In this document: positions 25,457 to 46,795 of the stretch, in pieces
Layout: every line of letters begins with the position of its first letter
How positions within the stretch are numbered: position 1 is the first letter of the stretch
Assembly: GCA_031361295.1 (NCBI GenBank)
Contig: JANMCN010000133.1
Span: forward strand, 8,443-72,442
Source of the DNA: Acidobacteriota bacterium
GTDB lineage: Bacteria > Acidobacteriota > Vicinamibacteria > Vicinamibacterales > 2-12-FULL-66-21
DNA length: 64,000 nucleotides
Direction of reading: 5' to 3'
Made by a program: the position numbers and the translations under genes
The notes under the pieces: generated by a model
Database searches by the model: none
The model's input: only the letters and a program-made list of their open reading frames with translations
Told to the model about the DNA's origin: nothing

Positions 25457-25473
25457 GTGGCACAGCCGTTGCG
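25457..25473 (+). promoter_or_regulatory. Sigma-54 (-24/-12) promoter of the flp/tad operon
   Basis: TGGCACAGCCGTTGC: TGGCAC and TTGC with exact GG-N10-GC spacing, about 105 bp before flp1. Confidence 0.8.
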
Positions 25474-28199: not shown

Positions 28200-30266
28200 A
28201 TGACCCCGCGGGCAACAACGTTCAGGCCGGCGCTGGCCGCCTTCATCATCGTGATACTCGTGGCTGCCCCGCAGGCCCGGCAGGCGCAACAGCCGCCGCA
28301 GTTTGCGCCGGCCGCCGCGGCCGCGCCAGGCGCGGGGTCGCGCATGTCCGCCGCGGGCACGACCGACATCGACCTGCTGGTCGGCCGCTCCACGGTCGTC
28401 AACGTGGGGTCCCCGATCGCGCGGGTGTCGCTGACCGTGCCGGACATCGCCGACGCGATGGTCACGGCGCCCGGGCAGCTGCTCATCCACGGCAAGGCGC
28501 CAGGGACCATTTCACTCTTCGTGTGGGATCGCGGCGGGGCAATCACCACGTACGAAGTGAAGGTACGGCGCGACCTGAGCGCGCTCGTCGAGCAGGTCAA
28601 GCAGCTGTTCCCCGGTGAGCCCATCAGCATCATCGGCAGCGGCAAGGACGTCGTGATCTCCGGCACGGTCTCGAGCCAGTACGTCGTGGACAAGGCGGCG
28701 AACGTCGCGGCCGGCTACGTCGACAAGGCCGACAACGTCGTCAACCTGCTGAAGCAGCAGGAGGGCGTCGCCTCGAACCAGGTCATGCTGCGCGTGCGCT
28801 TTGCAGAGGTCAGCCGGACCGCGATGACGGAACTGGGCGCATCGGTGTTCACGGGCCCCGGGGGCTTCCATGATTACGTCGCACGCTCGACCACGCAGCA
28901 GTTCGGCGCCCCCGACTTTGAAATGACCCGCGGATCGGTGCAGGGCGCGAACAAGTTCGGCGGGGGCCGGGACACGGTCGAGACCACGGGCGGCAAGCAG
29001 ACCTTCAGCGACTTCCTGAACCTGTTCGTCTTCAACAACAAGTACAACGTCGGCACGGTCGTCAAGGCGCTTCAGGACAAGGGGCTGTTCCAGAGCCTGG
29101 CGGAGCCGAATCTCATTGCCACCAACGGCAAGGAAGCGAGCTTCCTGGCCGGCGGAGAGTTTCCGATTCCGGTCGTGCAGGGCGGCGCCGGCGGCGGCAA
29201 CTCCGTGACGGTGCAGTTCAAGGAATTCGGCGTTCGCCTGAGCTTCACGCCGACCGTACTCGGCGGCGACCTCATCAACCTCAAGGTGAAGCCCGAGGTA
29301 AGCGCCCTCGATTTCGGGAACGCCGTCACGGTCAACGGATTCCGCATTCCGGCGTTGACGACGCGCCGTACTGACACCGAGGTGGAGCTGCGGGACGGGC
29401 AGACGTTTGCGATCGCCGGCCTGCTGAACAACACCGTCACCGACTCGATGCGCAAGATCCCCGGCATCGGCGACATTCCGGTTCTCGGCTGGCTGTTCAA
29501 GAGCAAGTCGCTCCAGAAGAACCAGACCGAGCTGGTGGTCATGATCACGCCGGTCATCATCAGGCGCGGGCAGATGGGGGTGTCGGAAGGGCTGCCGTCG
29601 CTCGTCGAGCCGTATCTCGGCGCGCCGGCCAAGACCTATCCCAATACCCAGCCGTACGTCGGATCGCCGCGGAACCCCACGACCGCGCCGGCTCCGAAGA
29701 GCGGGGCGGCGAGCGGATCCTCCGACAAGGCTCCCGCTCCGACGCCGGCCGCGAAGGCGGCGCCCGTGCAGGCGGCGAAGCCTGTGACGCGTCCGATCGA
29801 ATCATCGAAGCCGCTGCCGCTGGCGTCTGTGCCCTCGGGTGCTGCGAGCGCGCCTGCGGCGACGGCGCCCGCGCCGGTCAAGCACGCGGCGGCACCCGCG
29901 GCGAAGCCCGCGGCCGTCCCGGCTCCGAAGGTGGACACCAAGGCCCTGGCGCAGAAACGCGAAGCCGACAAGAAGGCCGCCGAAGCTGTCGCCAAGCTGA
30001 AAGCTGCCGACGACCTGCGCAAGGCCGAGGAGGAGCGCGTCGCCAGGAAGAAAACGGACGAGGACAAGCGCGCCGCCGAGAAACTCGCCAAGGAGCGCGC
30101 GCTCCGCGAGGCGGACGTGGCGAAGCGGAACGCCGAAGTGGCCCGCCGCAAGGCCGAAGAAGACCAGCGCCGCGATCGCTCGCTCGCCGACGCGGCGGCC
30201 CGCCTGAAGGCGGCGCAGGATGCCTACCAGGCCGAGGTCGACAAGACGAAGGGCTCCGAGAAATGA
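28200..30266 (+). CDS. cpaC: Tad secretin CpaC/RcpA with long Pro/Ala- and Lys/Glu-rich tail
   Basis: QVMLRVRFAEV, LAEPNL, ASFLAGGEFP, IPGIGDIPVLGWLF, ELVVMITP. Confidence 0.92.
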   Translation: MTPRATTFRPALAAFIIVILVAAPQARQAQQPPQFAPAAAAAPGAGSRMSAAGTTDIDLLVGRSTVVNVGSPIARVSLTVPDIADAMVTAPGQLLIHGKAPGTISLFVWDRGGAITTYEVKVRRDLSALVEQVKQLFPGEPISIIGSGKDVVISGTVSSQYVVDKAANVAAGYVDKADNVVNLLKQQEGVASNQVMLRVRFAEVSRTAMTELGASVFTGPGGFHDYVARSTTQQFGAPDFEMTRGSVQGANKFGGGRDTVETTGGKQTFSDFLNLFVFNNKYNVGTVVKALQDKGLFQSLAEPNLIATNGKEASFLAGGEFPIPVVQGGAGGGNSVTVQFKEFGVRLSFTPTVLGGDLINLKVKPEVSALDFGNAVTVNGFRIPALTTRRTDTEVELRDGQTFAIAGLLNNTVTDSMRKIPGIGDIPVLGWLFKSKSLQKNQTELVVMITPVIIRRGQMGVSEGLPSLVEPYLGAPAKTYPNTQPYVGSPRNPTTAPAPKSGAASGSSDKAPAPTPAAKAAPVQAAKPVTRPIESSKPLPLASVPSGAASAPAATAPAPVKHAAAPAAKPAAVPAPKVDTKALAQKREADKKAAEAVAKLKAADDLRKAEEERVARKKTDEDKRAAEKLAKERALREADVAKRNAEVARRKAEEDQRRDRSLADAAARLKAAQDAYQAEVDKTKGSEK

Positions 30267-30318
30267 AGAAGCTGACCTGGGGCGGCTAATTGACGTTCAA
30301 CCCGAACCGGAGAGCGCA

Positions 30319-31491
30319 ATGAAGAGACTCACACGGCTCCGTCGAGACGAATCGGGGATGACCTACGTGTTCGTGGGGCTGAGCCTGATGGCGCTCATGA
30401 GCGCGAGCATGCTCGCCATCGACGTCGGCATGTTGATGACGGCGCGCACCCAGGCGCAGAACGCCGCTGACGCGGGCGCGCTCGCGGGCGCGACGGCGCT
30501 GGTGTACGACAACTGGGACGACCGCACGGCCACCGGGCCAGCGGTCACCAGCGCCCTGTCGGCGGCGACGTCGAACAACGTGATGGGCGCGCAGGTCTCG
30601 GTGAACAGCGGGGACGTGCAGTTCTCGAACGACCCGAATACGGGCAGCCCCGACCGCGTGAAAGTGACGGTCTGGCGGGCGGCACAGCGGGGCAATCCCG
30701 TCTCGACGCTCATCGCGCGCTATTTCGGCACCGACACCGCGAACATCGGCGCGTCCGCGATGGCTGAGGCTGCGCCGGCGAACGCGATGACCTGCGTGAA
30801 GCCGTTCACGATTCCCGACAAGTGGATCGAAAAGCAGACGCCCCCATACGACGCGACCGACACGTACGACGCCTACAACAACAAGGGCGTTCCCCTGGCG
30901 AATCCCGACATCTACATTCCTGCGTATGACGCGAACGGGACCCCCGATCCCAGCTACACCGGGTACAACAACGAGCGCGAACGCGGCACGCGGCTGACGA
31001 TCCGGGCGAGCACGGGCAGCAACATCGCACCCAGCATGTACTTCTCGCTCGCGATGCTCGACAACACCGGGGGCGACGACTACCGGTGGAACATCGCGAA
31101 CTGCAACACACACGTCTACAAATGGGGCGACGGGCTGGTCCAGGAGCCTGGCGACATGACCGGTCCGACCGCCCAGGGCGTCGCGGACCTCATCGCGAGA
31201 GACCCGAACGCGTACTGGAATGCCTCGACCAACGGCGTGTCCAACAGCGCCTTCGGGAACCACAGCCCCAGAATTTTTCCGATTCCGCTGTATGACCCGA
31301 TTTACTACGACTCCGGAAAGCGGAACGGCCGGACCGCAACGCTGAAGACGGCGAACTGGATCGGGTTCTTCATCGAAGACGTCGCGGGCAAGGACGTCAT
31401 CGGCCGCATCATTCCCGTCGCCGGCATTCGTGACAAGAACGGTCCTGCACCGAATGCGGCGCTTCCGAAGACGATCCGGCTGATTCAGTAA
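30319..31491 (+). CDS. tadG: TadG-like pilus-associated protein
   Basis: ESG leader; AIDVG...AQNAADAGALAGA Tad N-terminal motif; RBS GGAGAG. Confidence 0.85.
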   Translation: MKRLTRLRRDESGMTYVFVGLSLMALMSASMLAIDVGMLMTARTQAQNAADAGALAGATALVYDNWDDRTATGPAVTSALSAATSNNVMGAQVSVNSGDVQFSNDPNTGSPDRVKVTVWRAAQRGNPVSTLIARYFGTDTANIGASAMAEAAPANAMTCVKPFTIPDKWIEKQTPPYDATDTYDAYNNKGVPLANPDIYIPAYDANGTPDPSYTGYNNERERGTRLTIRASTGSNIAPSMYFSLAMLDNTGGDDYRWNIANCNTHVYKWGDGLVQEPGDMTGPTAQGVADLIARDPNAYWNASTNGVSNSAFGNHSPRIFPIPLYDPIYYDSGKRNGRTATLKTANWIGFFIEDVAGKDVIGRIIPVAGIRDKNGPAPNAALPKTIRLIQ

Positions 31492-31500
31492 CCGATACCC

Positions 31501-32691
31501 ATGGCACAGCTCGCAGCATCCATCATCAGTCACGACGACGAGTTCAAACGGCAGCTGGCGGCGATGCTGCGGGCGTGCGGGGTTCCGGTCGGGATCGTCG
31601 AGGAGCGTCGAAGCGGCGCGGAGTCGGCCGGCCCTGACCTCGTCGTCGTCGACATCCGCGGCGACGCCTCGTCCGGCATGGCGGCGATCGAGCGGATGCG
31701 GGCGGGGCACCCCGGTGTCGCGCTCTTCGCTGTCGCGGCGGCGTCCGAGCCCGAGCTGATCCTCCAGGCGATGCGCGCCGGCGCGAACGAGTTCTTCCCG
31801 TGGACGGGGGGCGGCGCGACGCAGGCGTCGCGCGCCATGGAGGAGTCCTTCCACAGCGCCGTCCGGCGGACGGCGGCGCGGCGCGAGGCGGTCACCGCGG
31901 GCGCGCGTCAGCCGTGCGTGACGCACGTGTTCCTGGGCGCCAAGGGCGGCTCGGGCACGACGACCGTCGCGGTGAACTGCGCGGTCGAGCTCGCCAGACT
32001 GACGAAGCGGCCGACGGCGATCCTGGATCTCAAGCCGTGCCTGGGCGAAGTCGCGCTGTTCCTGGGCGTCCGTCCGCGGTTCACGGTGCTCGACGCGATC
32101 GAGAATCTGCACCGGCTGGACCGCGACTTCCTCAGTGAGCTCATGTCGCGCCACAAGTCGGGCCTCGACATCCTCGCCGCGTCCGAACAGTTCGACCGGC
32201 CGAACGCGCAGGACGCCGGCGCGATCGAGGAACTGCTCCGGGTCCTCGCGCGGCTCTACGACTACATCGTGATCGACGCCGGCAACATGATCAATTCGTG
32301 CGCGGTCGCGGCGCTCTATGCCGCGGACACGATCTTCCTGGTCACGAACCCCGACGTGCCGTCGATCCGCAACTCGCAGCGGCTCGTCGATCGCGTCCGG
32401 CAGCTCGGCGCGGGCAGCGAGCGCGTCAAGATCCTGCTTAACCGCGTGTCGGATCAGCATCTGATCGCCCCCAAGCAGATCGAGACCGCGCTCGGGTCCG
32501 GCATCCATCACACGTTCTCGAGCGACTACCGCACCGTGTCGACCGCACTCAACTCGGGCGTTCCACTCTCGCTGACGAACAACTCGGAAATCGCGATGCA
32601 GTTCGGCAGCTTCACGCGTCAGCTCCTCGGACTTCAGGAAGACGTGAAGCCAGAGCCTGAGAAACGCAAAGCATTCCTCGGGATCCTCTGA
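31501..32691 (+). CDS. cpaE: CpaE/TadZ (receiver plus MinD-like ATPase)
   Basis: AMRAGANEF receiver; deviant Walker A KGGSGTTT. Confidence 0.9.
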   Translation: MAQLAASIISHDDEFKRQLAAMLRACGVPVGIVEERRSGAESAGPDLVVVDIRGDASSGMAAIERMRAGHPGVALFAVAAASEPELILQAMRAGANEFFPWTGGGATQASRAMEESFHSAVRRTAARREAVTAGARQPCVTHVFLGAKGGSGTTTVAVNCAVELARLTKRPTAILDLKPCLGEVALFLGVRPRFTVLDAIENLHRLDRDFLSELMSRHKSGLDILAASEQFDRPNAQDAGAIEELLRVLARLYDYIVIDAGNMINSCAVAALYAADTIFLVTNPDVPSIRNSQRLVDRVRQLGAGSERVKILLNRVSDQHLIAPKQIETALGSGIHHTFSSDYRTVSTALNSGVPLSLTNNSEIAMQFGSFTRQLLGLQEDVKPEPEKRKAFLGIL

Positions 32692-32706
32692 TCGGAACCA
32701 ATTACC

Positions 32707-34050
32707 ATGACCCTGTCGATTACTCCTTCACAGGCGCCCGGCGCACCAGCCCGCCCCGCGCGGGTCGAGGCGCCGAGACCGCAGTATCTCGAGCTCAAGG
32801 CCAACGTCCACCGGAAGCTGCTCAACCGGCTGAACCTCGAAGCGCTGGCCTCCGCGGAGCGGCCCAGGGCCGAAGCCGAGATCCGGACGCTGCTCTTCGA
32901 ATTGATTTCCGAAGAAGGCATGCCGCTCACGATGACCGAGCGTGAAGGCATCCTGAGCGACGTCATCGACGAGGTATTCGGCCTGGGACCCCTCGAGCCC
33001 CTGCTGCGCGACCCGGGTGTCAGCGACATCCTGGTGAACACCTACAAGCAGGTGTACGTCGAGCGCGCCGGCAAGCTCGAGCGGCTGCCGACGACGTTCC
33101 AGAGCGACAAGCACCTGATGCGCGTGATCGACCGCATCGTCAGCGGCGTCGGGCGCCGGGTCGACGACAGCTCGCCGATGGTCGACGCGCGCCTCCCCGA
33201 CGGGTCCCGCGTCAACGCCATCATTCCACCGCTCGCCGTCGACGGGCCCCTGCTCTCGATCCGCCGCTTTCCTGCGGAGCGGCTCAAGGCCGAGGATCTC
33301 GTCACGATCAAGTCCATGACACGGCCGATGCTCGAGTTCCTCGAGCACTGCGTGCGTGCGCGGCTGAACATGCTCATCAGCGGCGGCACCGGCGCCGGCA
33401 AGACCACGCTGCTCAACGTGCTCTCGAGCTTCATCTCCGAACGCGAACGCATCGTGACGATCGAAGACGCGGCCGAGCTGCAGCTGCACCAGGAGCACGT
33501 GGCCCGGCTCGAGACGCGTCCGCCGAACGTCGAGGGCAAGGGTGCCGTGCGCCAGCGACAGCTGCTCATCAACGCCCTTCGTATGCGTCCCGACCGCATC
33601 GTCGTCGGTGAGACACGAGGCGAAGAGGCGCTCGACATGCTCCAGGCCATGAACACCGGCCACGACGGCTCGCTCACGACGACCCACGCCAACACGCCGC
33701 GCGACGCCCTGACGCGCATCGAGACGATGATCGCGATGGGGGCGACGAACCTGCCGGAGCGCGCGATGCGGCAGCAGATTGCGGCCGCGATTCAGATCGT
33801 GATCCAGCAGTCGCGCATGAGCGACGGCACGAGGAAGGTGACGAGCATCTCCGAGATCACCGGCATGGAGGGCGACGTCATCACCATGCAGGAGATCTTC
33901 TGCTTCGAGAAGCTCGGGATCACGCAGGACGGCAAGGTGATCGGGCGCTTCCGGGCCACGGGCGTCCGCCCGAAGGTGTGCGAGCGGCTGAAGGCCTCGG
34001 GGATCCATCTGCCGCCCGACATGTTCGAAGGCGTGACGGAGGTGCGGTAA
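32707..34050 (+). CDS. cpaF: Tad secretion ATPase CpaF/TadA
   Basis: [30 protein letters not shown]. Confidence 0.96.
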
Positions 34051-35034
34051 ATGGCCGCCGCGATTCTCGTCCTGCTCGTATTCGGATTCGGCGTCGCGCT
34101 GGTGATGGGCCTGTACTTCGGCGCGACGAAGCTGCCGGGCATGCTCGAGCAGCGCAAGGTGGACGCGCGCCTGCTGGAGGTGTCGCAGCCGCTCGTCGAC
34201 GAGCCGGCTCCGGGCAGCCTCAAGATGCTGGTCAAGGCGCGCCACGAAGGGCCCGTCCCTGGGCTCGATCGCATGGTCGCCGAGTCCGCAAGACTCTCGG
34301 GCATCGGCGCCTGGCTGGAGCAGTCCGGTCTCAAGGTGAGTGTCAGCGGCGTCCTGATCATCGCGCTTGCGAGCGCCGGGCTGGTCGGCCTGGTCGCCGC
34401 GCTGGTGACGCGCGCGCCCGTCGCGCTGCCGCTTGGGGCCGCGGTCGGGTTCGCGGCGCCGTTCCTGTTCCTGAAGGTGAAGCGCTCGCGCCGGCTGCGG
34501 GTGTTCGAGGAGCAGTTCCCGGAAGCGCTCGACATGATCGCCCGGGCGCTCAAGGCCGGCCACGCCTTCGCGACGGGGCTGAAGATGGCCGCCGACGAAC
34601 TGCCCGAACCCGTCGGACCGGAGTTCCGCAAGACCTTCGACGAGCAGAACTTCGGCCTGCCGCTGAAGGACTCGCTCGACAACCTGGCCAAGCGGATTCC
34701 CATTCTCGACGTGCGGTTTTTCGCGACCGCCGTGCTGATCCAGCGGGAGACGGGCGGCAACCTCTCGGAGATCCTGGAAAACCTCGGCCACGTCGTGCGG
34801 GAGCGATTCAAGATTCTCCGGCAGGTGCGCGTCTATACCGCACACGGCCGGTTCACGGGGTACGTCCTGCTGGCCCTGCCGGCATTCCTGGGCATCGCCC
34901 TGTCGTTCATCAACCCGGACCACATGAACATGCTGTTCCGCGAACGCATGGGGCAGATGATGCTGCTCGGCGCGCTCGTGATGCAGGCGATCGGGTTCCT
35001 GTGGATCAAGCACGTCATCAAGATCGAGGTGTAG
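34051..35034 (+). CDS. tadB: TadB inner-membrane platform protein
   Basis: QFPEALD, ALKAGH, IQRETGGNL. Confidence 0.92.
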   Translation: MAAAILVLLVFGFGVALVMGLYFGATKLPGMLEQRKVDARLLEVSQPLVDEPAPGSLKMLVKARHEGPVPGLDRMVAESARLSGIGAWLEQSGLKVSVSGVLIIALASAGLVGLVAALVTRAPVALPLGAAVGFAAPFLFLKVKRSRRLRVFEEQFPEALDMIARALKAGHAFATGLKMAADELPEPVGPEFRKTFDEQNFGLPLKDSLDNLAKRIPILDVRFFATAVLIQRETGGNLSEILENLGHVVRERFKILRQVRVYTAHGRFTGYVLLALPAFLGIALSFINPDHMNMLFRERMGQMMLLGALVMQAIGFLWIKHVIKIEV

Positions 35035-35035
35035 T

Positions 35036-35953
35036 GTGGCGATGCTCCTGCCCCTGCTGGCATTCGTGTTCGGATCTCTCATAATCGCCGCCGCGGCCAT
35101 CGCGATGATGCCGAAGCCGGCGACGAGCATCGATCGACGGATCGAGGAGCTCAGCGCCGCGCGCGCCACCGACGCGGACGCGCGGCCGCGATTCGACTCG
35201 ATGGTCGCGTTCTTCAAGCGGGTGGGGGAGAAGGCTCCGCGCTCCGCGAAGGAGCTCGGATCGTTGAAGCTGCGGCTCGTTCAGGCGGGCTACCGCCGGC
35301 ACGAAGCCCTCACGATCTTCTTCGGCGTCCGCGTGGTGTTCGCGCTCGCGCTGTTCTCCCTGTTCTCGACGTCCGTGCTCTCGCGCCCGAACATGACCCT
35401 TGCGCTCGGCGGGCTGGGCTTCGGCTACGTGCTGCCCGGCATGATCCTCGCGCGCATGGCGAAGCGCCGCGCCCACCGGATCCGGCTCTCGCTCGCGGAC
35501 GCGCTCGATTTGCTCGTCGTCAGCGTCGAAGCCGGCCTTGGTCTCGACCAGGCGCTGTCGCGCGTCGGCATGGAGCTCGAATTCGCCTATCCCGAGCTGT
35601 CGGACGAGCTGCGGCTCATCAACCTGGAGCTGCGGGCCGGGAAGCCGCGGGCCGAAGCGCTGCGAAACCTCGCCGACCGCACGGGTGTCGACGACTTGAG
35701 TGCACTCGTGACGATGCTCATCCAGACGGACAAGTTCGGCACGAGCGTCGCGCAGTCGCTGCGCGTGTATTCCGAGACGCTGCGCACCAAGCGGCGCCAG
35801 CGGGCCGAGGAAGCCGCGGCGAAGACCGGCGTGAAGATGGTGTTCCCGCTCGTGTTCTGCATCTTCCCGGCGATCTGGATCGTGACGATTGGCCCCGCGG
35901 CCATCCGCTTCGTCACGGTGCTCTTCCCGCTCGTCGAGAACTCGCGCCGGTAA
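35036..35953 (+). CDS. tadC: TadC inner-membrane platform protein
   Basis: DALDLLVVSVEAGLG, AEEAAAK, KMVFPL. Confidence 0.92.
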   Translation: MAMLLPLLAFVFGSLIIAAAAIAMMPKPATSIDRRIEELSAARATDADARPRFDSMVAFFKRVGEKAPRSAKELGSLKLRLVQAGYRRHEALTIFFGVRVVFALALFSLFSTSVLSRPNMTLALGGLGFGYVLPGMILARMAKRRAHRIRLSLADALDLLVVSVEAGLGLDQALSRVGMELEFAYPELSDELRLINLELRAGKPRAEALRNLADRTGVDDLSALVTMLIQTDKFGTSVAQSLRVYSETLRTKRRQRAEEAAAKTGVKMVFPLVFCIFPAIWIVTIGPAAIRFVTVLFPLVENSRR

Positions 35954-39783: not shown

Positions 39784-41532
39784 TCACCCCGCCACGAGCA
39801 TCGGGCGCGCCGTCGTGCGCGGGAACTCCAGCACGAACGTGGTGCCCTTGCCGACTTCACTGGCGACGGTGATGGTCCCGCCGAGCTGCTCGACGATTTT
39901 CTTCGAGATGGCGAGCCCGAGCCCGAGGCCTCGCCGCTTCGTCGTGACGAAGTCCTCGAAGACTTGTGAGAGCCGCTCCGCCGGGATGCCGCAGCCGGTG
40001 TCGTAAATGCGGACCTGCACGCGGTCGGCGCGCGCCTCGGTCGCCACGACGATCAGCCCCCCGGGCGCCGTCGCCTGGATCGCGTTCAGGATCAGGTTTC
40101 GATAGACCCTCCCGAGCGCGAAGACGTCGCCTTCGATGAAGACTATCTCCGGCGTCAGCTCCGTCCGGAGCGTCAGCCCGGCGGTCTCGGCGTGCTGTTC
40201 CATGGCCTCGGCGGCATCGGCGACGGTCCGGTTCAAGTCGACCGCGAAGCGCTCGAGCGGAATCGGGCGCGCGATGTTCCGCAGGTCATCGAGCACGCGC
40301 TTGACGATGACGAGCTCGCGCTCGACTGTTTTCCTGAAGGTCTCGCGGTATTCGATATCCTCGTACATCTTCTGGATCAGCTTGCAGCTGTTGCCGATGT
40401 TCTGGATCGGATGCGAGAGATCGTGCACGAGGCCGGCGGCAATGCGCCCGAACATCGCCTGCCGTTCCTGCTTCCGGACGTTCTCCTGCAGCTCGACGAG
40501 CCGATCGGCCATGGAGTTGAACGCGTCGCCGAGCTGGCGGATCTCGTCGTGGCCGGACGGGGCGACCCGCTCGTCCATGTGGCCGTCGGCAATCGCGCGC
40601 GTCACGCGCGTGAGCGCGAAGATCCGCTGGATGAACGATCGTCCCCAGACCCACCCGAGCACCACCGTGCCGAGGATTGCCAGGGCGATGGCGGCCAGGA
40701 GCTGGCGTTCCAGGGAGTGCGCCACAGCAAAGGCATCGGTCGTCGGCTGCTCGATGAGGATCGTCCACTGGGGGTTGTCCACTGCCGCGGCGACGGCGAG
40801 GAGCGGTTCGTTCCGACGATTGGAAAACGTGGCGGAATCGGTCGAAGAGGCATGCACCCGGACCGACTCCGCAAGCTTCCGTTCGTCGGGCGCGGCGCTG
40901 GCGCCGGTCGCGATTAGTTCCTTGTCATTCGGGTTTCCGTGCGCGATGAATTTCCCCTGCTGGTCGACGAGCAGCGCATACCCCGCGGTGCCGACCCTGA
41001 TCCTGTCAACCGTGCGCCACAGCTCCTCCAGGGAGATCTCGGCGACGATCCACCCGGCATCGTCGAGGGGCACGGCAATCGTCGTGGTCGGCAGTGCGTC
41101 TGCGTCCATGTGCGGCGTGGCCACGTAGAATGCGTCTTCCTTCGCATTCCGGCTGCGCCAGCCCTCGGGCACGGACAATGAGGTCTGGCCGACGCGGCTG
41201 GTCACCCGAACACGCCCGGAACCGTCGAACACAGAAATTTCGCGGAACTCTCTGAAATCGAGTACGTGGTTGCGAAGAATGCGCTCCTGCTGCCACAGTC
41301 CGAGTTGCGTGTTCTGGAGCTCGGCGCCAATCGAGGTCAGCACGCGGACGTTGTTATCGAAGTAGAGCTTCACCCTGCCGGCGACCTGCTCCGCCACCGC
41401 CTGGTTCCCGAGCGTGACGGACTTTTCAGTTCCCGTCCTCAACGATTCGACGGACCAGATGCCATACCCGATCAGCGGCAGAACCGCGGCCGTGGCGATG
41501 AGCAGGACGAAGCGGGAGGTGATCCCCCTCAT
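39784..41532 (-). CDS. Sensor histidine kinase (TM, Cache-like periplasmic domain, TM, HAMP, HisKA, HATPase)
   Basis: H-box VHDLSHPI, N-box NLILNAIQA, DTGCGI, FVTTK, GLGLGL; ATGA overlap with the upstream SBP gene. Confidence 0.93.
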   Translation of the reverse strand: MRGITSRFVLLIATAAVLPLIGYGIWSVESLRTGTEKSVTLGNQAVAEQVAGRVKLYFDNNVRVLTSIGAELQNTQLGLWQQERILRNHVLDFREFREISVFDGSGRVRVTSRVGQTSLSVPEGWRSRNAKEDAFYVATPHMDADALPTTTIAVPLDDAGWIVAEISLEELWRTVDRIRVGTAGYALLVDQQGKFIAHGNPNDKELIATGASAAPDERKLAESVRVHASSTDSATFSNRRNEPLLAVAAAVDNPQWTILIEQPTTDAFAVAHSLERQLLAAIALAILGTVVLGWVWGRSFIQRIFALTRVTRAIADGHMDERVAPSGHDEIRQLGDAFNSMADRLVELQENVRKQERQAMFGRIAAGLVHDLSHPIQNIGNSCKLIQKMYEDIEYRETFRKTVERELVIVKRVLDDLRNIARPIPLERFAVDLNRTVADAAEAMEQHAETAGLTLRTELTPEIVFIEGDVFALGRVYRNLILNAIQATAPGGLIVVATEARADRVQVRIYDTGCGIPAERLSQVFEDFVTTKRRGLGLGLAISKKIVEQLGGTITVASEVGKGTTFVLEFPRTTARPMLVAG

Positions 41533-43070
41533 CGGCGAGCGACCTGGGCCACAGCCCGCCAGCGCCACAGGTTGGTAAACACCTCGGGATCCGAGCGATC
41601 GCCGACGTCAAAGCGGGAATCGACCGCGCGGCTGTTCTGAATCCACGCGAGGAAGACCGCGGGCGCGTCCTCGTAGAACTGGCCGCGCAGATCCCCCACG
41701 GCCGCCCTCATCTCGGGCTCCGCTCGTGCGTGGCGCAGCTGCTCGAGCGCACGATCCACTCCTGAGTAGCCGGAATCCAGTAACTCGGGGCGTTGACCCC
41801 GCGCCGGCGAATGCCAGAACCGGTACACCCAGTCGAAGGACCGGCCGCTCGTCATCTGGTAGACGTAGGTGTCGAAGTCTCCGGCGGAGGCCCGTGCCTG
41901 CAGCTCTGTTTCGCGGGCGCCAGTCAGCGCCAGATCCACCCCGACTGCCGCGAGCTGACGCTGCAGCAGCAGCGCGATCCGCTCGAACTGTGGATCCTCA
42001 TCCCAGAACAGGCACCTGATTCGGAACCGGCTGGCCATGTCGCCCGGATTCCTCCCCGCGCGCACTGGGAGACCAGCCGCCTCGAGTCTCAGACGCGCCG
42101 CACCCGGGTTGTAGCTGTGGCGCCGCGCGGCGGCGTTGTAGGCCCAGTGCGACGGCCATACGGGATCGTCCGCGACCTGTCCTTTGCCGCCCATGGCCTG
42201 GCTCACGATTTCGTCTCGGTTGATCGCTTCGGACAGCGCACGTCGGACTTCGATCTGCCTCAGAATCGGATGACGCAGGTTGAAGACGAGCGGGATGTAG
42301 AAGGGCCGAAGAGAGGAGTAGACGGAGATCCGCGTGGCGCCTTCGAGGAATTCAACAGAGTCCCTGTTGGCCTCCTGCACCATGTCGACTTCACCGCGCA
42401 TCAAGGCCGCCCAGGCGACGCGCTGCGTTTCGAACGTTCGCACCTCCACGCGGCCGATCCCGGGGCTGCCCCGGTAGTAGCTGGGGAACCTGACCGCTTC
42501 GAGAACAGGCTTCTGTTTGAGGATCCTGAAGGGGCCGGTGCCCACATTCGGCTTGCGCTGGTCGACAATCAGCGTACCCGCGATGATTTCGATCAGGAAG
42601 GCGTCAGGCCTCGTCAGATGAAACACGACGGACTGATCGTCGGGAGACTCGACGTGGTCGACTGCTTCGAAGCCGCTCGTCCGCAGTTGCTGCCCGATGA
42701 TTGCCGCGGCTACCGCGCCCGTGAGCGGGGTGCCGTCGTGAAACATCACGCCGCGACGAAGCGTGAGGCGCAAGGTGAGGCCGTCCGCATCCCAGGCCCA
42801 CGACGTCGCGAGGCGCTCGACGGCTCTGCCCTGAGGATCGAGGGCAATCAACGGCTCCGCGAACAGCGACTCACGAAGTACCTTCGGGGTTTCACCAGTG
42901 CCGCGTGCCCCTATCCGCAGACTGTTGGCCAGTGCTGGTGCGGTCGCACCGCGCCTGCATCCGGCCGCGCTCGAGAGAATGATCAGGACGGCGAGCACGC
43001 AGATACCCAACGGCGGGCATCCTGACTGCCGAGTCACCCGCGACCGACGTGCCGCTGCCGCTCTGTGCAT
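41529..43070 (-). CDS. Family 5 (OppA/DppA-like) solute-binding lipoprotein, no adjacent permease
   Basis: Lipobox-like AAGC; LRRGVMFHDGTPLT, GTGPF, FNLRHP...VRRALSEAINR; start uncertain. Confidence 0.9.
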   Translation of the reverse strand: MHRAAAARRSRVTRQSGCPPLGICVLAVLIILSSAAGCRRGATAPALANSLRIGARGTGETPKVLRESLFAEPLIALDPQGRAVERLATSWAWDADGLTLRLTLRRGVMFHDGTPLTGAVAAAIIGQQLRTSGFEAVDHVESPDDQSVVFHLTRPDAFLIEIIAGTLIVDQRKPNVGTGPFRILKQKPVLEAVRFPSYYRGSPGIGRVEVRTFETQRVAWAALMRGEVDMVQEANRDSVEFLEGATRISVYSSLRPFYIPLVFNLRHPILRQIEVRRALSEAINRDEIVSQAMGGKGQVADDPVWPSHWAYNAAARRHSYNPGAARLRLEAAGLPVRAGRNPGDMASRFRIRCLFWDEDPQFERIALLLQRQLAAVGVDLALTGARETELQARASAGDFDTYVYQMTSGRSFDWVYRFWHSPARGQRPELLDSGYSGVDRALEQLRHARAEPEMRAAVGDLRGQFYEDAPAVFLAWIQNSRAVDSRFDVGDRSDPEVFTNLWRWRAVAQVARR

Positions 43071-43190
43071 GGAGTGGGGGGCCGCCGGGACCCCGCAAGG
43101 CGGGTAGCCTTGCCAGTCCCCTGATCTGCGACGTCCCCTATAGTATCGGCCTTCTCATGCCAAAGAGAGAGACCGATCCGAGAGACCCGG

Positions 43191-43286
43191 CTACTTGCGC
43201 GGCTCGGGCATCTGTTCGACGACCCACGCGCAGCCGCTGTGGGGCAGGGGCTTCTTGTCGGCCTTCTTCACGATCTGGATTTTCAT
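43191..43286 (-). CDS. Putative RiPP precursor peptide C (31 aa) MKIQIVKKADKKPLPHSGCAWVVEQMPEPRK
   Basis: RBS AAAGGA; 29/31 aa identical to peptide B; downstream of the rSAM/SPASM gene. Confidence 0.88.
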   Translation of the reverse strand: MKIQIVKKADKKPLPHSGCAWVVEQMPEPRK

Positions 43287-43326
43287 GGTGCTTATCCTTT
43301 GATTTCAGGGTTGTTCGAGTGAGTCG

Positions 43327-43422
43327 CTACGCCCGGGGCTCGGGCATCTGCTCGACGACCCATGCGCAACCGCTGTTGGGCAGGGGCTTCTTGTCGGCTT
43401 TCTTGACGATCTGGATTTTCAT
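43327..43422 (-). CDS. Putative RiPP precursor peptide B (31 aa) MKIQIVKKADKKPLPNSGCAWVVEQMPEPRA
   Basis: RBS AGAGGA; paralog of peptide C; true start lies inside the track ORF 43327..43539. Confidence 0.88.
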   Translation of the reverse strand: MKIQIVKKADKKPLPNSGCAWVVEQMPEPRA

Positions 43423-43468: not shown

Positions 43469-43555
43469 TTACCGCAGGTGCTCGACGGCCACATCGATGA
43501 GCCAGGGCCGCAGCGGGACTTTCTTCTTGTCCGTTTCATTCCTGTCGTTTTTCAT
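43469..43555 (-). CDS. Putative divergent peptide A (28 aa) MKNDRNETDKKKVPLRPWLIDVAVEHLR
   Basis: Strong RBS AAAAGGAGAG; starts 31 bp after the rSAM stop; shares DKK..P..W-hydrophobic-hydrophobic-acid pattern with B/C. Confidence 0.7.
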   Translation of the reverse strand: MKNDRNETDKKKVPLRPWLIDVAVEHLR

Positions 43556-43586: not shown

Positions 43587-45020
43587 CTAGTTGACCGAGC
43601 CGACGCCGATCCCCGCGGCATCGCGCGCGAGTGAGACGACGCCGGCCTCGAAGCTGCTCTTGTGGCAGTTCGGCCGGCTCATGTTCCCGAGCTCCGTGTG
43701 GGCCGCGACGGAGCAGCCGCCCGCGCAGACCGGGATGAAGGCGCAGTCGTCGCACTCCTTCCACGCAGCCAGCTGGTCGAATCGGGACGCGGCGCGCTGG
43801 CGCCACTCGTCCTGCCGACCGTCGATGTGCCCCGTGGACTGCGAGGCGTCCCCCGTGAAGCCCGGGCAGGCGTACATCGCGCCGTCCGGACCGATGGTGT
43901 GGGCGTGCGCCCGGTGAATCTCGCAGGGCCCCATGTGCACGCCGTCCATCGTCGCGAATCCACGCTTCTTCGTCTCTTCGCGCAGGTATGACATCTTCTC
44001 GTCGAGGAAGTTGCAGGTATCGCAGACGCTCGAGCCGCTCGTGCCGCTTCCCGCGGACGTCATGCACGTGCCGTTCAGCGGCTTGGTCCCCGCCCCGACC
44101 AGCGTCAGCGGAATCAGCCCCTTCCGCTGCTCCGGCTTGGGCTCGCGGATCACCGGCTTGAAGGCGACGCGCGCGATCTTGTCCGAAAACTCCTGTTCCT
44201 TGAGGAAGTCGAGCAGCGCCGGGTAGCTGTCGACCGAGCTCTCGTCGAAATTGCCCCCAATCGAGATGCGGCACTTGCCCGCCACGGCCCGCACGTTCTG
44301 GATGATCTTGTCGAACGTGCCCTGGCCTCCGCGGAGCGGGCGCATGCGGTTGTGCGTGTCGTGATCGCCGTCGAGCGTGATTTTCACCGCGTTCAGGCCG
44401 CACGGCGCGAGCCGATCGACCACCTCCGGCGTGAGCAGCAAGCCGTTCGTGATGACGTTGAGCTGCATCCGGACCCCCCTCGCCTGCGAGGCCGCCCACA
44501 GCCGCTCCGAGAGGTAGTACGCGACCGGCAGGTTCAGGAGCGGCTCGCCGCCGAACAGCGTGAGCACGAAGCTCCCTGGCTTGAGCGTGTCGAGCTGTCC
44601 CTCGGTGAACGCCGCCACGCGGTCCGCGGTCTCCATCGTCATCTTCGCGGCGAACTTGTTGTAGTCGCCGTGGTCACCCTGGAAGCAGTAGTCGCACGCG
44701 AAATTGCACTGCAGGGTCGTGAGGACCGTGACGCGGAGCTGGTCGGCGCTCTGCCGCAGGTCGCGGAACCATTGCTCGATGTGCAGGCGCTCGGCCTCGC
44801 GGTTGTCGACGATGAACCCGTGGTCTGACAGGGTGGAGAGCGCCGTCCGTTCGGCCGGGTTGAGCGCCCCGGTGTCAGCCGTCCCTACGCGGTCGAGCAG
44901 CGCCGCGACGTCACGCGACACGATCAGCTGGGCATCCGTGAACGTGTTCATCAGGAACACGTCGTCGTGCCGGCCAGCCGTGTCGAGCGGGACGCGGACG
45001 TTGAACATCGAGGGCTGCAT
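43587..45020 (-). CDS. Radical SAM/SPASM peptide maturase with N-terminal RRE-like domain
   Basis: CNFACDYC; FGGEPLL; SPASM cysteines GPC...YAC...CDDC-x5-C-x3-C...C; N-terminal VFLMNTFT...LSDHGFIV; RBS GGGAGAG before ATG 45020. Confidence 0.93.
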   Translation of the reverse strand: MQPSMFNVRVPLDTAGRHDDVFLMNTFTDAQLIVSRDVAALLDRVGTADTGALNPAERTALSTLSDHGFIVDNREAERLHIEQWFRDLRQSADQLRVTVLTTLQCNFACDYCFQGDHGDYNKFAAKMTMETADRVAAFTEGQLDTLKPGSFVLTLFGGEPLLNLPVAYYLSERLWAASQARGVRMQLNVITNGLLLTPEVVDRLAPCGLNAVKITLDGDHDTHNRMRPLRGGQGTFDKIIQNVRAVAGKCRISIGGNFDESSVDSYPALLDFLKEQEFSDKIARVAFKPVIREPKPEQRKGLIPLTLVGAGTKPLNGTCMTSAGSGTSGSSVCDTCNFLDEKMSYLREETKKRGFATMDGVHMGPCEIHRAHAHTIGPDGAMYACPGFTGDASQSTGHIDGRQDEWRQRAASRFDQLAAWKECDDCAFIPVCAGGCSVAAHTELGNMSRPNCHKSSFEAGVVSLARDAAGIGVGSVN

Positions 45021-45112: not shown

Positions 45113-45129
45113 TGCAACGCATATTCCGG
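45113..45129 (-). promoter_or_regulatory. Sigma-54 (-24/-12) promoter for the rSAM-peptide operon
   Basis: Minus strand CCGGAATATGCGTTGCA: GG-N10-GC with TTGCA; adjacent to a sigma-54 activator gene. Confidence 0.68.
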
Positions 45130-45272: not shown

Positions 45273-45288
45273 GGCCAATCCATTGGCC
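45273..45288. promoter_or_regulatory. Palindrome, candidate upstream activator site
   Basis: GGCCAAT-CC-ATTGGCC about 145-160 bp upstream of the -24 element. Confidence 0.45.
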
Positions 45289-45409: not shown

Positions 45410-46795
45410 TCAGGCTCCGCGCAGCTTCCGGGCGATGTCCCGCAGATCGAGGCGGGCCATCTTGAATTTGAGGGTGCTGAGGGGGATCCCGAGATACCGC
45501 GCGGTGGCGGTGACGTTCCAGTCGGACTTCTCGAGCGCCCGCAGGATGAAATTGCGTTCGAAGGTATCGCAGGCCTCCTGGAACAGGGCTTCGCCGGTGG
45601 TCGACCCGGAGTCGAGCTTGGCGAAGTGGTACTCGAGCGGCAGATCCTCGTCGGTGATCCACTCCTTGTCGGTGACCGCGACGAGTCGCTCGATGAGATT
45701 TTCGAGCTCGCGGATGTTGCCGGGCCACCAGTATGAGGCGAGAATCTTGAGAGCGGTGCCGGAGATGCCCCGCACCGGCTTGCGGAATTTCGTCTTGTAC
45801 CGATCGAGGAAGAGGCGCGCCAGCTCGGGAAGATCCTCGATGCGCTCGCGCAGCGGCGGCATCCGGATCGGGATGACGTTGATGCGATAGAACAGGTCCT
45901 CCCGGAACCGCCCCTCCTTCACGGCCTTCTCCAGGTCCACGTTCGTCGCGACGACGAGCCGGAAACTCGTCCGGATCGGCTTCGTCCCTCCGACCCGTTC
46001 GATCTCCCCTTCCTGGATCGCGCGCAGCAGCTTGGCCTGGAGGTCGAAACGGAGGTCGCCGATTTCGTCGAGGAAGAGCGTGCCTCCCGAGGCGAGCTCG
46101 AATTTGCCGAGCTGCTGTTTGTGCGCGCCCGTGAACGAACCCCGTTCGTGCCCGAAGAGCGTGCTCTCCACCAGTTCGTGCGGAATGGCGGACAGGTTGA
46201 CGGCGATGAACGGGGTCGATCCCCGGCCCGAGGTCCGGTGGAGGAGGCGCGCGAGCAGTTCCTTGCCGGTCCCGCTCTCGCCCAGGATGAGGACCGTGGC
46301 GGAGAGCTTGGCCACCTTCTGGACGAGCTCGACGATGTCGCGGATCTGCCGGCTCGGGCCGATCAGGAACTCCCGCTCGCTCTGCTCCGCCACCTGCGCG
46401 CTGAGCGTGATGACCTGGCGGTTCAGGTCCTGGCGTTCGCAGGCGTTCCGGACCATCGAGCGCAGCTCGTCGTACTCGAAATTCTTGGTGATGTAGTGGT
46501 AGGCGCCGTGCTTCATCGCCTGGACCGCGGTCTCGACCTCGTTGATCGCCGAGATCATGATGCACTCGATGAGGCTGTAGTTCTCCTTGACGATCCGCAG
46601 CACGTCGAAGCCGCTGATCCCGGGCAGCCGGACGTCCAGCAGGATGAGATCCACGTCCTCCTGCTTCAGCAGCATCAGGGCGGCTTCGCCGCTCGCCACC
46701 ATGAGGACGCGGTAGTCCCGCTTGAGGATGGCGCCGATGGTGTCGCGCATCCCCTGATCGTCGTCGCAAATCAGGATGGTCTTGGAGCTCGCCAT
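45410..46795 (-). CDS. Sigma-54-dependent response regulator (NtrC/AtoC family)
   Basis: Receiver (CDDD, LLDVRLP), GESGTGKE, GSFTGA, FLDEIG, WPGNIREL, Fis-type HTH. Confidence 0.95.
   Translation of the reverse strand: MASSKTILICDDDQGMRDTIGAILKRDYRVLMVASGEAALMLLKQEDVDLILLDVRLPGISGFDVLRIVKENYSLIECIMISAINEVETAVQAMKHGAYHYITKNFEYDELRSMVRNACERQDLNRQVITLSAQVAEQSEREFLIGPSRQIRDIVELVQKVAKLSATVLILGESGTGKELLARLLHRTSGRGSTPFIAVNLSAIPHELVESTLFGHERGSFTGAHKQQLGKFELASGGTLFLDEIGDLRFDLQAKLLRAIQEGEIERVGGTKPIRTSFRLVVATNVDLEKAVKEGRFREDLFYRINVIPIRMPPLRERIEDLPELARLFLDRYKTKFRKPVRGISGTALKILASYWWPGNIRELENLIERLVAVTDKEWITDEDLPLEYHFAKLDSGSTTGEALFQEACDTFERNFILRALEKSDWNVTATARYLGIPLSTLKFKMARLDLRDIARKLRGA

What the first reader, a model, noticed from the sequence alone, without database searches (positions are those of the whole stretch)
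43191..43422. Twin unannotated 31-aa precursor peptides with a C-A-W-V-V-E core and a purifying-selection signature
Seen: MKIQIVKKADKKPLP[N/H]SGCAWVVEQMPEPR[A/K], each copy with its own RBS. The copies differ at 10 nt: 7 synonymous, the rest giving N/H and terminal A/K. Their flanks are unrelated, so both look translated. Inference: the basic KIQIVKK stretch is the RRE-binding leader. The single Cys could form a thioether to the downstream Glu (CX4E, compare QhpD/PapB Cys-Asp/Glu links) or a Cys-Trp/aromatic cross-link. The chemistry cannot be read from sequence.
Basis: partly seen in the sequence, partly recalled or inferred. Interest (0 to 1): 0.85.

Follow-up and report, generated by a model that had tools for sequence, protein, structure and literature searches.

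The report
Twin precursor peptides for radical-SAM maturase
Two tiny neighbouring genes in a soil or sediment acidobacterium encode near-identical 31-residue peptides that are very probably raw material for an adjacent radical-SAM enzyme, as part of a widely conserved, undescribed peptide-modification and sensing gene module.

Summary
Two 31-aa ORFs lie on the minus strand (43422..43327 and 43286..43191). They differ at 10 nt, 7 of them synonymous, and have unrelated flanks.

They follow a radical-SAM/SPASM gene (45017..43587).

Complete homologues of the twins sit behind the orthologous maturase in 77 of 81 loci, all but one titled Acidobacteria/Acidobacteriota or Vicinamibacterales. An HMM of them found 377 protein clusters, and 149 of the 150 best carry C-x-[W/F/Y]-x-x-[D/E]. 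Paralogue pairs give pN/pS of about 0.07.

A modelled complex puts the KIQIVKK leader on a beta-strand of the enzyme's N-terminal RRE-like domain and the core in the catalytic barrel (0.83 against a best control of 0.02).

The operon has a conserved sigma-54 promoter and an upstream palindrome. It is flanked by a sigma-54 response regulator, an orphan peptide-type binding protein and a Cache histidine kinase.

The chemistry is untested; a Cys19-Glu24 thioether is the best guess. No curated family covers the peptides or the maturase.

The parts
43327..43422 (-). Class A precursor peptide, copy 1 (31 aa, MKIQIVKK leader, core C19-A-W-V-V-E24)
   Evidence: Translation. HMM hit at E 1.0e-14. RBS read. 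Selection signature.
43191..43286 (-). Class A precursor peptide, copy 2 (31 aa, H16 and K31 instead of N16 and A31)
   Evidence: Translation. HMM hit at E 1.9e-15. Alignment with copy 1.
43469..43555 (-). Class B peptide (28 aa, no Cys, core L-R-P-W-L-I-D-V, C-terminal EHLR). It is a paralogue of class A placed directly after the maturase gene.
   Evidence: Found in 55 of 81 loci, plus one H-P-W variant. The residues P, W, L and D are identical in 55 of 55.
43587..45017 (-). Radical-SAM/SPASM peptide maturase (476 aa from ATG 45017) with an N-terminal RRE-like domain
   Evidence: NCBIfam and Pfam hits. Invariant Cys residues. AF2 model. The closest solved structure is CteB, by sequence and by fold. 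The orthologue alignments start at this ATG.
45113..45128 (-). Sigma-54-type promoter-like element CGGAAT-N5-TTGCA, 111 nt before the maturase ATG
   Evidence: [CT]GG-N8-TTGC is present in the upstream region of 57 of 62 loci, mostly at -85 to -138. rpoN is present in the genome.
45273..45288 (-). Palindrome GGCCAATGGATTGGCC, a candidate enhancer site for the sigma-54 activator
   Evidence: GGCCAA-N4-TTGGCC-like palindromes in 45 of 62 loci, about 160-180 nt upstream of the promoter element.
45410..46795 (-). Sigma-54-dependent response regulator (receiver, AAA+ sigma-54 activator domain, Fis-type HTH)
   Evidence: It lies upstream of the maturase gene in every locus whose contig reaches that side, at 69-99% identity.
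41529..43070 (-). Orphan family-5 solute-binding protein (peptide/nickel type). A lipoprotein-like N-terminus was read from the translation and not tested.
   Evidence: Pfam SBP_bac_5 at 1.2e-56. Downstream of the peptides in every locus long enough to show it, but only 30-61% identical.
39784..41568 (-). Sensor histidine kinase with dCache, HAMP and HATPase domains. Its start overlaps the end of the binding-protein gene.
   Evidence: Synteny.

Best explanation
The twin ORFs are real, translated precursor-peptide genes (here 'class A') of a RiPP system that is widespread in the order Vicinamibacterales. Inferred steps follow.

(1) A sigma-54 promoter with an upstream palindrome drives one transcript. 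It carries the radical-SAM/SPASM maturase gene, a Cys-less class B peptide gene and one to four class A genes.

(2) The N-terminal M-K-I-x-[V/I]-[V/I]-K-K of class A adds a strand to the beta-sheet of the maturase's N-terminal RRE-like domain. A spacer of nearly fixed length then places the core C-[P/A]-[W/F/Y]-x-x-[D/E] in the catalytic barrel beside the SPASM clusters.

(3) The enzyme makes one intramolecular cross-link. The most likely one is a thioether from the sulfur of Cys19 to a side-chain carbon of Glu24 (Asp in many relatives). This would give a six-residue ring and a loss of 2 Da, as PapB and QhpD do with Cys-Xn-Asp/Glu.

(4) The adjacent binding protein, Cache kinase and sigma-54 regulator control the operon, either in response to the product or to an outside cue.

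Shown here: the ORFs, their selection signature, the family-wide motif, the synteny and the promoter elements. Modelled: leader-RRE binding. Inferred: the cross-link, the single transcript and the regulatory logic.
For: The ORFs and their differences are.

Selection. The own pair gives pS 0.372 and pN 0.040. Pooled over 20 within-locus paralogue pairs, pN/pS is 0.069 (8 further pairs of unequal length were skipped). A related-strain contig in run X4 carries 9 substitutions in the two coding parts, 6 of them synonymous plus H16N, E24D and E28A. The 40-nt spacer between the genes carries 14 substitutions and 3 indels.

Family. An iterated HMM over six-frame translations finds complete class A peptides in 77 of 81 loci, always after the maturase gene. 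Of 104 hits, 102 carry C-x-[WFY]-x-x-[DE]. A profile of 81 class A peptides found 377 representatives at E <= 0.001 among 1.84 billion proteins, nearly all 29-34 aa. Of the 150 best, 149 carry the core motif, 136 have a single Cys, and the leader-to-Cys distance is 17 in 102 of 145.

Enzyme. The CX3CX2C motif (C104, C108, C111) and the seven SPASM cysteines (C365, C384, C422, C425, C431, C435, C451) are invariant in 36 orthologues. The best NCBIfam hits are maturases named for thioether formation or for Cys-rich target peptides: geopeptide maturase 259 bits, CefB 187, TIGR04463 185, PapB 117, QhpD 93, SCIFF maturase 92. The closest solved structure is the thioether synthase CteB, by sequence (E 3.6e-16) and by fold (E 1.4e-15).

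Complex model. The score is 0.83 against a best control of 0.02. That mark was reached by 58 of 80 solved complexes and by 2 of 110 mismatched pairs. The runs agree in at least 80% of contacts and the partner's pLDDT is at least 66. Peptide residues 3-9 lie against enzyme residues 28-34. Peptide residues 15-26 lie against residues 361-369, 384-386 and 429-438.

Precedent. PapB cross-links Cys-X3-Asp/Glu and accepts Cys-Xn-Asp with n = 0-6 (PMC9413430, abstract read).

Regulation..
Against: There is no expression evidence. No RNA run holds the stretch, which says nothing either way.

The maturase is below the curated cut-off of every NCBIfam family (best 259.5 against 400). Pfam reported Radical_SAM and Fer4_12 but no SPASM domain at E <= 0.1. 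The chemistry therefore cannot be transferred by membership.

The class B peptide keeps P-W-L-[V/I]-D but has Arg where class A has Cys. It is more conserved than class A. A pure Cys-to-Glu thioether does not explain that. It also does not explain the near-invariant aromatic residue two places after the Cys.

The complex model may pass by likeness to solved leader-bound maturases such as CteB or SuiB. It also used my own alignments and rider ligands, which the calibration did not.

No protease or exporter lies in the module; the flanking genes are housekeeping. The fate of the product is unknown.

The loci are related genomes and do not count independently.
Confidence: 0.6

Rival explanations
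1. Same precursor-maturase pair, but the cross-link centres on the aromatic residue. It could be a C-C bond between Trp/Phe/Tyr21 and the acidic residue three places on (PqqE joins Glu and Tyr, from recall). It could be a cyclophane. It could be a bond between residue 19 (Cys in class A, Arg in class B) and the aromatic ring two places on, as WprB links Trp to Arg. Under this reading class B would also be a substrate.
For: The aromatic residue at +2 is present in 149 of 150 representatives and in 102 of 102 locus copies. Class B keeps R-P-W-L-V-D almost unchanged in 55 loci while lacking Cys, which is easiest to explain if P-W..D is what the enzyme works on. Cyclophane-forming and darobactin-type families also match the maturase: DynA 79 bits, YhhB 72, FxsB 55. 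A Trp-Arg cross-link by an rSAM enzyme is in print (PMC11851443; title and start of abstract seen in the listings).
Against: The Cys is invariant in class A (102 of 102; 150 of 150 have at least one Cys). W, F and Y interchange, which fits a hydrophobic contact as well as it fits a reactive ring. The maturase scores higher against the families named for thioether formation or Cys-rich targets and is closest to CteB. Class B lacks the K-I-x-V-I-K-K leader in most loci, so it may not be recruited by the RRE at all.
Confidence: 0.25
2. The peptides are precursors of a small peptide-derived cofactor or metabolite, in the manner of PQQ or mycofactocin. They are not a peptide product in their own right.
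For: There is a short invariant triad (Cys, aromatic, acidic) inside an otherwise variable peptide, and precursor genes occur in several copies. No exporter lies in the module.
Against: No peptidase, oxidase or carrier gene accompanies the maturase in the conserved module. The residues around the triad, such as the P-P-E follower and the basic C-terminus, are also patterned. The module instead carries a peptide-type binding protein and a sensor kinase.
Confidence: 0.05
3. The small ORFs are not substrates of the maturase. They are small regulatory proteins or leader-type ORFs that tune expression of the downstream binding-protein and kinase genes. The maturase acts on something else.
For: They lie between the maturase gene and the sensor genes. 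A GC-rich hairpin follows copy 2 (z = -1.96).
Against: Amino-acid sequence, not just translation, is under selection. The copy number varies from 1 to 4. The modelled complex with the maturase passes its controls. The hairpin is weak and no intrinsic terminator was found after the peptide genes.
Confidence: 0.05

Closest known systems
Ranthipeptide systems: PapA/PapB (freyrasin) and QhpC/QhpD
   Same: An rSAM/SPASM enzyme with an N-terminal RRE, and a Cys followed a few residues later by Asp or Glu. PapB handles Cys-Xn-Asp with n = 0-6 and Cys/Glu pairs (PMC9413430, abstract read). Both families match the maturase.
   Different: Scores are far below the cut-offs (PapB 117 against 340, QhpD 93 against 453). 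There is one motif per peptide instead of six. The spacing is X4 with a conserved aromatic residue inside the ring. A Cys-less paralogue is present. The regulation and gene neighbours differ. No product is known.
Geopeptide system of NCBIfam (TIGR04229 peptide, TIGR04280 maturase)
   Same: It is the best-scoring curated family for the maturase, aligned over residues 45-461. It also pairs small peptides with an rSAM maturase.
   Different: The maturase scores 259.5 bits against a cut-off of 400. The geopeptide HMM finds nothing at the locus even at E <= 10. A full-text search for 'geopeptide' found no paper, so that family's chemistry is not documented in the library either.
CteB/CteA (thermocellin), the closest solved structure
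   Same: The domain order is the same: RRE, rSAM barrel, SPASM. The leader is modelled as an added beta-strand on the RRE, and the core Cys lies near the auxiliary clusters.
   Different: Identity is only about 17% in the fold alignment. I recall the CteA core and ring pattern to be different; this was not checked here.
RaS-RiPPs of streptococci (streptide and relatives under shp/rgg quorum sensing)
   Same: Short precursor genes beside an rSAM/SPASM enzyme, wired to a peptide-sensing regulator. The topic was seen only in the listings (PMC9389541, PMC13361665).
   Different: Those are in Gram-positive hosts with cytoplasmic Rgg receptors. Here the host phylum is Acidobacteriota, and the candidate sensor is a binding protein plus Cache kinase plus sigma-54 activator. 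This is a functional analogy only.

Membership tests
rSAM/SPASM RiPP maturase with its precursor (general class) | CX3CX2C radical-SAM cluster motif | tested here: met
   C104, C108 and C111 are invariant in 36 orthologues. Pfam Radical_SAM at 1.5e-16.
rSAM/SPASM RiPP maturase with its precursor (general class) | SPASM seven-cysteine motif for two auxiliary clusters | tested here: inconclusive
   C365, G379-X4-C384, C422-X2-C425-X5-C431-X3-C435 and C451 are invariant. NCBIfam SPASM-type families align through this region. However, Pfam did not report a SPASM domain at E <= 0.1. Cluster binding cannot be tested here.
rSAM/SPASM RiPP maturase with its precursor (general class) | RiPP recognition element that binds the leader | tested here: met
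   The AF2 model has strands at 6-10, 19-24 and 29-34 followed by helices at 35-43, 54-65 and 73-89. The complex model pairs leader residues 3-9 with enzyme residues 28-34, scoring 0.83 against 0.02. This is a model, not a measurement.
rSAM/SPASM RiPP maturase with its precursor (general class) | Precursor gene adjacent to the maturase gene and conserved with it | tested here: met
   77 of 81 loci.
Ranthipeptide (non-alpha-carbon thioether) | Thioether from Cys sulfur to a beta or gamma carbon of the acceptor residue | not testable with these tools
   Only the sequence prerequisite is met: a single Cys with Asp/Glu at +5 in 149 of 150.
PapB family (NF047865) and QhpD family (TIGR03906) | Score over the curated cut-off | tested here: not met
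   117.2 against 340, and 92.7 against 453.
Geopeptide maturase (TIGR04280) and geopeptide (TIGR04229) | Scores over the curated cut-offs for enzyme and peptide | tested here: not met
   The enzyme scores 259.5 against 400. The peptide HMM has no match at the locus at E <= 10, and the only hit in the genome is 11.2 bits elsewhere.
Three-residue cyclophane (triceptide) and other cyclophane maturases (YhhB, FxsB) | Score over the cut-off, and an aromatic-X-X motif cross-linked from residue 1 to residue 3 | tested here: not met
   YhhB scores 72.4 against 445 and FxsB 55.1 against 370. The conserved partner of the aromatic residue is at +3, not +2. The chemistry was not tested.

The most novel reading that the evidence does not exclude
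The module is a self-contained peptide-pheromone circuit in a Gram-negative soil phylum. The rSAM-cyclised class A peptide leaves the cell. The lipoprotein-type family-5 binding protein captures it and hands the signal to the Cache kinase. The kinase activates the sigma-54 regulator. The regulator acts through the GGCCAA-N4-TTGGCC site and the -24/-12 promoter and turns on more maturase and peptide. The Cys-less, nearly invariant class B peptide is a built-in uncyclisable mimic that competes at the maturase or the receptor. Rapid co-divergence of peptide and binding protein would then give lineage-specific 'pherotypes'.
Probability: 0.25. Interest if true: 0.85.

Novelty: new variant of a known kind. 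Interest (0 to 1): 0.62.

Why it matters
Acidobacteriota are among the commonest soil bacteria, and I recall almost nothing being known about their peptide natural products or cell-to-cell signals. This locus offers a compact, testable system: one enzyme, a 31-residue substrate with a single Cys, and a natural Cys-less analogue. It occurs in hundreds of sequence variants.

Solving the product would either add a C-X4-[D/E] single-ring type to the thioether peptides or reveal a different cross-link.

If the adjacent binding protein and kinase sense the product, it would be a rare case of modified-peptide signalling in a Gram-negative phylum. Natural receptor-ligand co-variation would be available for study.

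Tried and rejected
Curated families. NCBIfam and Pfam scans of the three window peptides (E up to 0.1), and an NCBIfam scan at E up to 10 of P0002 plus four peptides from other loci, found nothing. The geopeptide HMM did not hit the locus.

Literature. Searches were 'geopeptide' (0 papers); Vicinamibacter / radical SAM / RiPP; Cys-Trp / thioether / radical SAM; OhkG / FlmE / CefB / TIGR04280 (only unrelated hits); ranthipeptide + Acidobacteria (genome-mining surveys by title and abstract start, none opened); and Acidobacteriota + SPASM + precursor peptide (0 papers). None described this family in what I saw. Subscription journals and supplementary files were not searched, so this is not proof that it is unpublished. 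In PMC10288494 I only searched for terms; Acidobacteria, Vicinamibacter and geopeptide were not mentioned.

Expression. No RNA holder was listed for window:43100-45100. This is no evidence either way.

Terminators. The scan found none after the peptide genes. The hairpin after copy 2 is only marginal (z = -1.96).

Co-evolution. A Mantel test over 50 loci gave peptide against binding protein r = 0.66, and partial r = 0.39 given the maturase. I treat this as a hint only. The loci are kin, and fast-evolving proteins track the tree anyway.

Considered and set aside. A formylglycine-type oxidation of Cys as by anSME (65.6 bits against 349; the anSME motif, which I recall as C-x-P-x-R, is not present). 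Also a Cys-tryptophylquinone-like cofactor, since the aromatic residue is Phe or Tyr in many relatives.

Unpublished genome. G022 was among the 41 genomes and showed only a weak rSAM match.

The source names of these peptides therefore could not be looked up.

Full report
WHAT IS THERE. On the minus strand, window 43422..43327 and 43286..43191 each encode a 31-residue peptide, MKIQIVKKADKKPLP[N/H]SGCAWVVEQMPEPR[A/K]. The two coding parts differ at 10 of 96 nucleotides. Seven differences are synonymous, one gives N/H and two give A/K. The sequences before the start codons and after the stop codons do not align. Each start has its own Shine-Dalgarno-like stretch. Contigs from runs of a second study bridge both copies, so the tandem is not an artefact of one assembly.

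SURROUNDINGS. Read in the direction of transcription (minus strand), the neighbourhood holds the following:
- a sigma-54-dependent response regulator (46795..45410);
- a 392-nt gap;
- a radical-SAM/SPASM gene (45017..43587);
- a third small ORF (43555..43469, MKNDRNETDKKKVPLRPWLIDVAVEHLR, with a strong RBS);
- the twins;
- a family-5 solute-binding protein (43070..41529);
- overlapping its end, a dCache-HAMP histidine kinase (41568..39784).

The genes beyond these are housekeeping types: an HU-like DNA-binding protein, QueF and Smr on one side, and on the other a gene that I read from its translation as lipoamide dehydrogenase (not scanned). No protease or exporter lies in the module.

THE FAMILY. 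The window belongs to a 4.9-Mb genome, 98.9% complete. Its related loci are titled Acidobacteriota or Vicinamibacterales. Strong maturase orthologues (E below 1e-100) occur in 18 of 24 same-genus genomes and in 8 of 16 other families of the order. In an even draw of 301 genomes of the phylum they occur in 9. All 9 are among the 25 genomes of the same order, and none among the 276 others searched.

A pattern scan of one genome per species found 344 relatives, of which I examined the best 80. I ran an HMM, seeded with five peptides and iterated, over all six-frame stop-to-stop segments of these 80 loci plus the window's own locus. It found two peptide classes, always on the maturase strand and downstream of the maturase gene.

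Class A is the twins' type. It is complete in 77 of 81 loci: 54 loci have one copy, 20 have two, 2 have three and 1 has four. Of the four remaining loci, two copies are cut by the contig end, in one the contig ends before the place, and one locus has lost the peptide.

Class B is the third ORF's type. It is present in 55 of 81 loci, plus one H-P-W variant. It always lies between the maturase gene and class A.

CLASS A DESIGN. The peptide runs M-K-I-x-[V/I]-[V/I]-K-K, then a spacer, then C-[P/A]-[W/F/Y]-x-[V/I/L]-[D/E], then often P-P-E and a basic end. In the locus set the Cys is present in 102 of 102 copies. Position +1 is Pro in 75 and Ala in 24. Position +2 is Trp in 72, Phe in 23 and Tyr in 7. 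Position +5 is Asp in 56 and Glu in 46. These 102 are the HMM hits (of 104) that fit the motif I used to place the core; the other two are a frameshifted copy and the class B variant.

An independent check came from a profile of 81 class A peptides searched against 1.84 billion representative proteins. It returned 377 clusters at E <= 0.001, almost all 29-34 residues long. Of the 150 best, 149 carry C-x-[WFY]-x-x-[DE] and 136 have exactly one Cys. The distance from the leader Lys to the Cys is 17 residues in 102 of 145, with a range of 15-20. The ESM Atlas holds the window's peptide letter for letter, and its nearest clusters of 30-32 residues are called 'hypothetical protein'.

SELECTION. Within-locus paralogue pairs are nearly identical in protein but well diverged at silent sites. 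The own pair gives pS 0.372 and pN 0.040. Twenty pairs pooled give pN/pS of 0.069. The pairs are not independent, and 8 pairs of unequal length were skipped. With silent-site divergence this high, recent gene conversion is an unlikely cause of the protein identity, so selection keeps each copy coding.

Between loci the ratios are as follows:

| Region | pN/pS |
|---|---|
| Leader, 8 codons | 0.22 |
| Core, 6 codons | 0.49 |
| Class B core, 14 codons | 0.25 |

A related-strain contig shows 9 changes in the two coding parts. Six are silent and the others are H16N, E24D and E28A. The 40-nt spacer shows 14 substitutions and 3 indels. H16N and E24D are exactly the kinds of change seen across the family.

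THE ENZYME. It carries CX3CX2C and the seven-cysteine SPASM pattern, all invariant in 36 orthologues. The AF2 model (mean pLDDT 74) shows an N-terminal three-strand, three-helix domain of the RRE type before the barrel. The closest solved protein is the thioether synthase CteB, by sequence and by fold. TigE, SuiB, SkfB and anSME follow.

Among curated families it scores best with the geopeptide maturase (259.5 bits against a cut-off of 400). Next come CefB, TIGR04463, FlmE/OhkG, Clo7bot, PapB, QhpD and the SCIFF maturase. It is below the cut-off of every one of them. Pfam reported no SPASM domain at E <= 0.1.

LEADER BINDING. I modelled a complex of the enzyme (alignment of 36 rows), three 4Fe-4S clusters, SAM and the class A peptide (alignment of 81 rows). 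It scored 0.83, and the best of three controls scored 0.02. That mark was reached by 58 of 80 solved complexes and by 2 of 110 mismatched pairs. The runs agree in at least 80% of contacts and the partner's pLDDT is at least 66.

The tightest contacts are peptide residues 3-9 against enzyme residues 28-34, which form the third strand of the N-terminal domain. Peptide residues 15-26 touch barrel and SPASM residues, including the stretches that hold C365, C384 and C435. Leader-bound structures of related maturases exist, so the pass may partly reflect likeness. It supports binding and does not show it.

CHEMISTRY (INFERRED). The best guess is one thioether from Cys19 to Glu24. It rests on a single Cys, an acidic residue always five places on, and an enzyme whose nearest relatives are named for thioether formation or for Cys-rich target peptides. 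PapB links Cys to Asp or Glu and tolerates 0-6 intervening residues (PMC9413430, abstract; PMC10739248, abstract).

Two facts resist this reading: the almost invariant aromatic residue inside the ring, and class B. Class B reads ...G-T-L-R-P-W-L-V-D-V-x-[V/L/I]-[D/E]-x-L-R. It has P, W, L and D identical in 55 of 55 loci and Arg where class A has Cys. Some class B copies still show a K-x-V-I-K-K remnant (L064 and L067), so class B looks like a derived class A.

Class B may be an uncyclisable mimic. Alternatively, the enzyme's real target may be the aromatic-acidic pair. I therefore keep an aromatic-centred cross-link as a serious rival.

REGULATION. A -24/-12 element (CGGAAT-N5-TTGCA in the window, 45128..45113) lies upstream of the maturase gene in 57 of 62 loci with full flanks, usually 85-138 nt before the ATG. 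A GGCCAA-N4-TTGGCC palindrome (45288..45273) lies 160-180 nt further upstream in 45 of 62 loci. The genome has rpoN.

The order regulator, maturase, peptides, binding protein, kinase is kept wherever the contig allows. Identities to the window's proteins differ sharply:

| Protein | Identity to the window's copy |
|---|---|
| Regulator | 69-99% |
| Maturase | 63-91% |
| Binding protein | 30-61% |
| Kinase N-terminus | 37-72% |

Peptide and binding protein are thus the two fast-evolving parts. Their distances correlate (r = 0.66; partial r = 0.39 given the maturase; 50 loci). This fits a ligand-receptor pair but is weak evidence among kin.

COMPARISON AND NOVELTY. In kind this is an RRE-dependent rSAM/SPASM RiPP system, closest in logic to ranthipeptides. 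It is not a member of any curated family that I could test (see the membership table). Its peptides match no NCBIfam or Pfam model. Six full-text searches found no description of it. Subscription journals and supplements were not covered.

The distinctive points are these:
- a single C-X4-[D/E] ring motif with an embedded aromatic residue;
- a conserved Cys-less paralogue;
- the fixed sigma-54, binding-protein and Cache-kinase wiring;
- restriction, in the genomes searched, to one acidobacterial order.

I rate it a new variant of a known kind. It is of real but not extraordinary interest until the product or the signalling role is shown.

Noticed in passing
window 43469-43555 (-): A Cys-less 28-aa peptide (class B, core LRPWLIDV, C-terminal EHLR) lies between the maturase gene and the twins. 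It is more conserved across loci than the twins and has no known family.
   Followed up: yes
window 25458-25472 (+): A perfect match to the sigma-54 consensus TGGCAC-N5-TTGC. It lies upstream of a run of genes at 28200-35953 that read like a Tad/Flp pilus cluster. Those gene names come from my reading of the translations and were not tested.
   Followed up: no
L031:4100-4590: Four tandem class A copies with identical or nearly identical products but silent-site divergence of 0.12-0.41 between copies.
   Followed up: partly
L108:3900-4060; L070:4105-4230: One locus has lost class A apart from an 'MKIT' remnant running into other sequence. Another has a frameshifted class A copy.
   Followed up: partly
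G003:C2:256835-258254, G004:C14:424114-425508, G013:C6:110402-111802, G039:C3:1858624-1860052, G010:C1:339951-341376: Maturase orthologues with in-frame TGA codons or split into pieces. They could be decaying copies or assembly or frameshift errors; this was not resolved.
   Followed up: no
L098: The record is titled 'uncultured Bifidobacteriaceae' but carries the full Vicinamibacterales-type module with 65% maturase identity. It is probably a mislabelled bin.
   Followed up: no
window 43071-43195 (-): A GC-rich stem-loop lies between copy 2 and the binding-protein gene (-57.6 kcal/mol, z = -1.96). There is no T-run, so it is not a canonical terminator.
   Followed up: partly
window 41529-41568: The kinase ORF overlaps the end of the binding-protein gene. 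An internal ATG at about 41532 would overlap the stop codon as ATGA, which suggests translational coupling (read from the coordinates, not tested).
   Followed up: no
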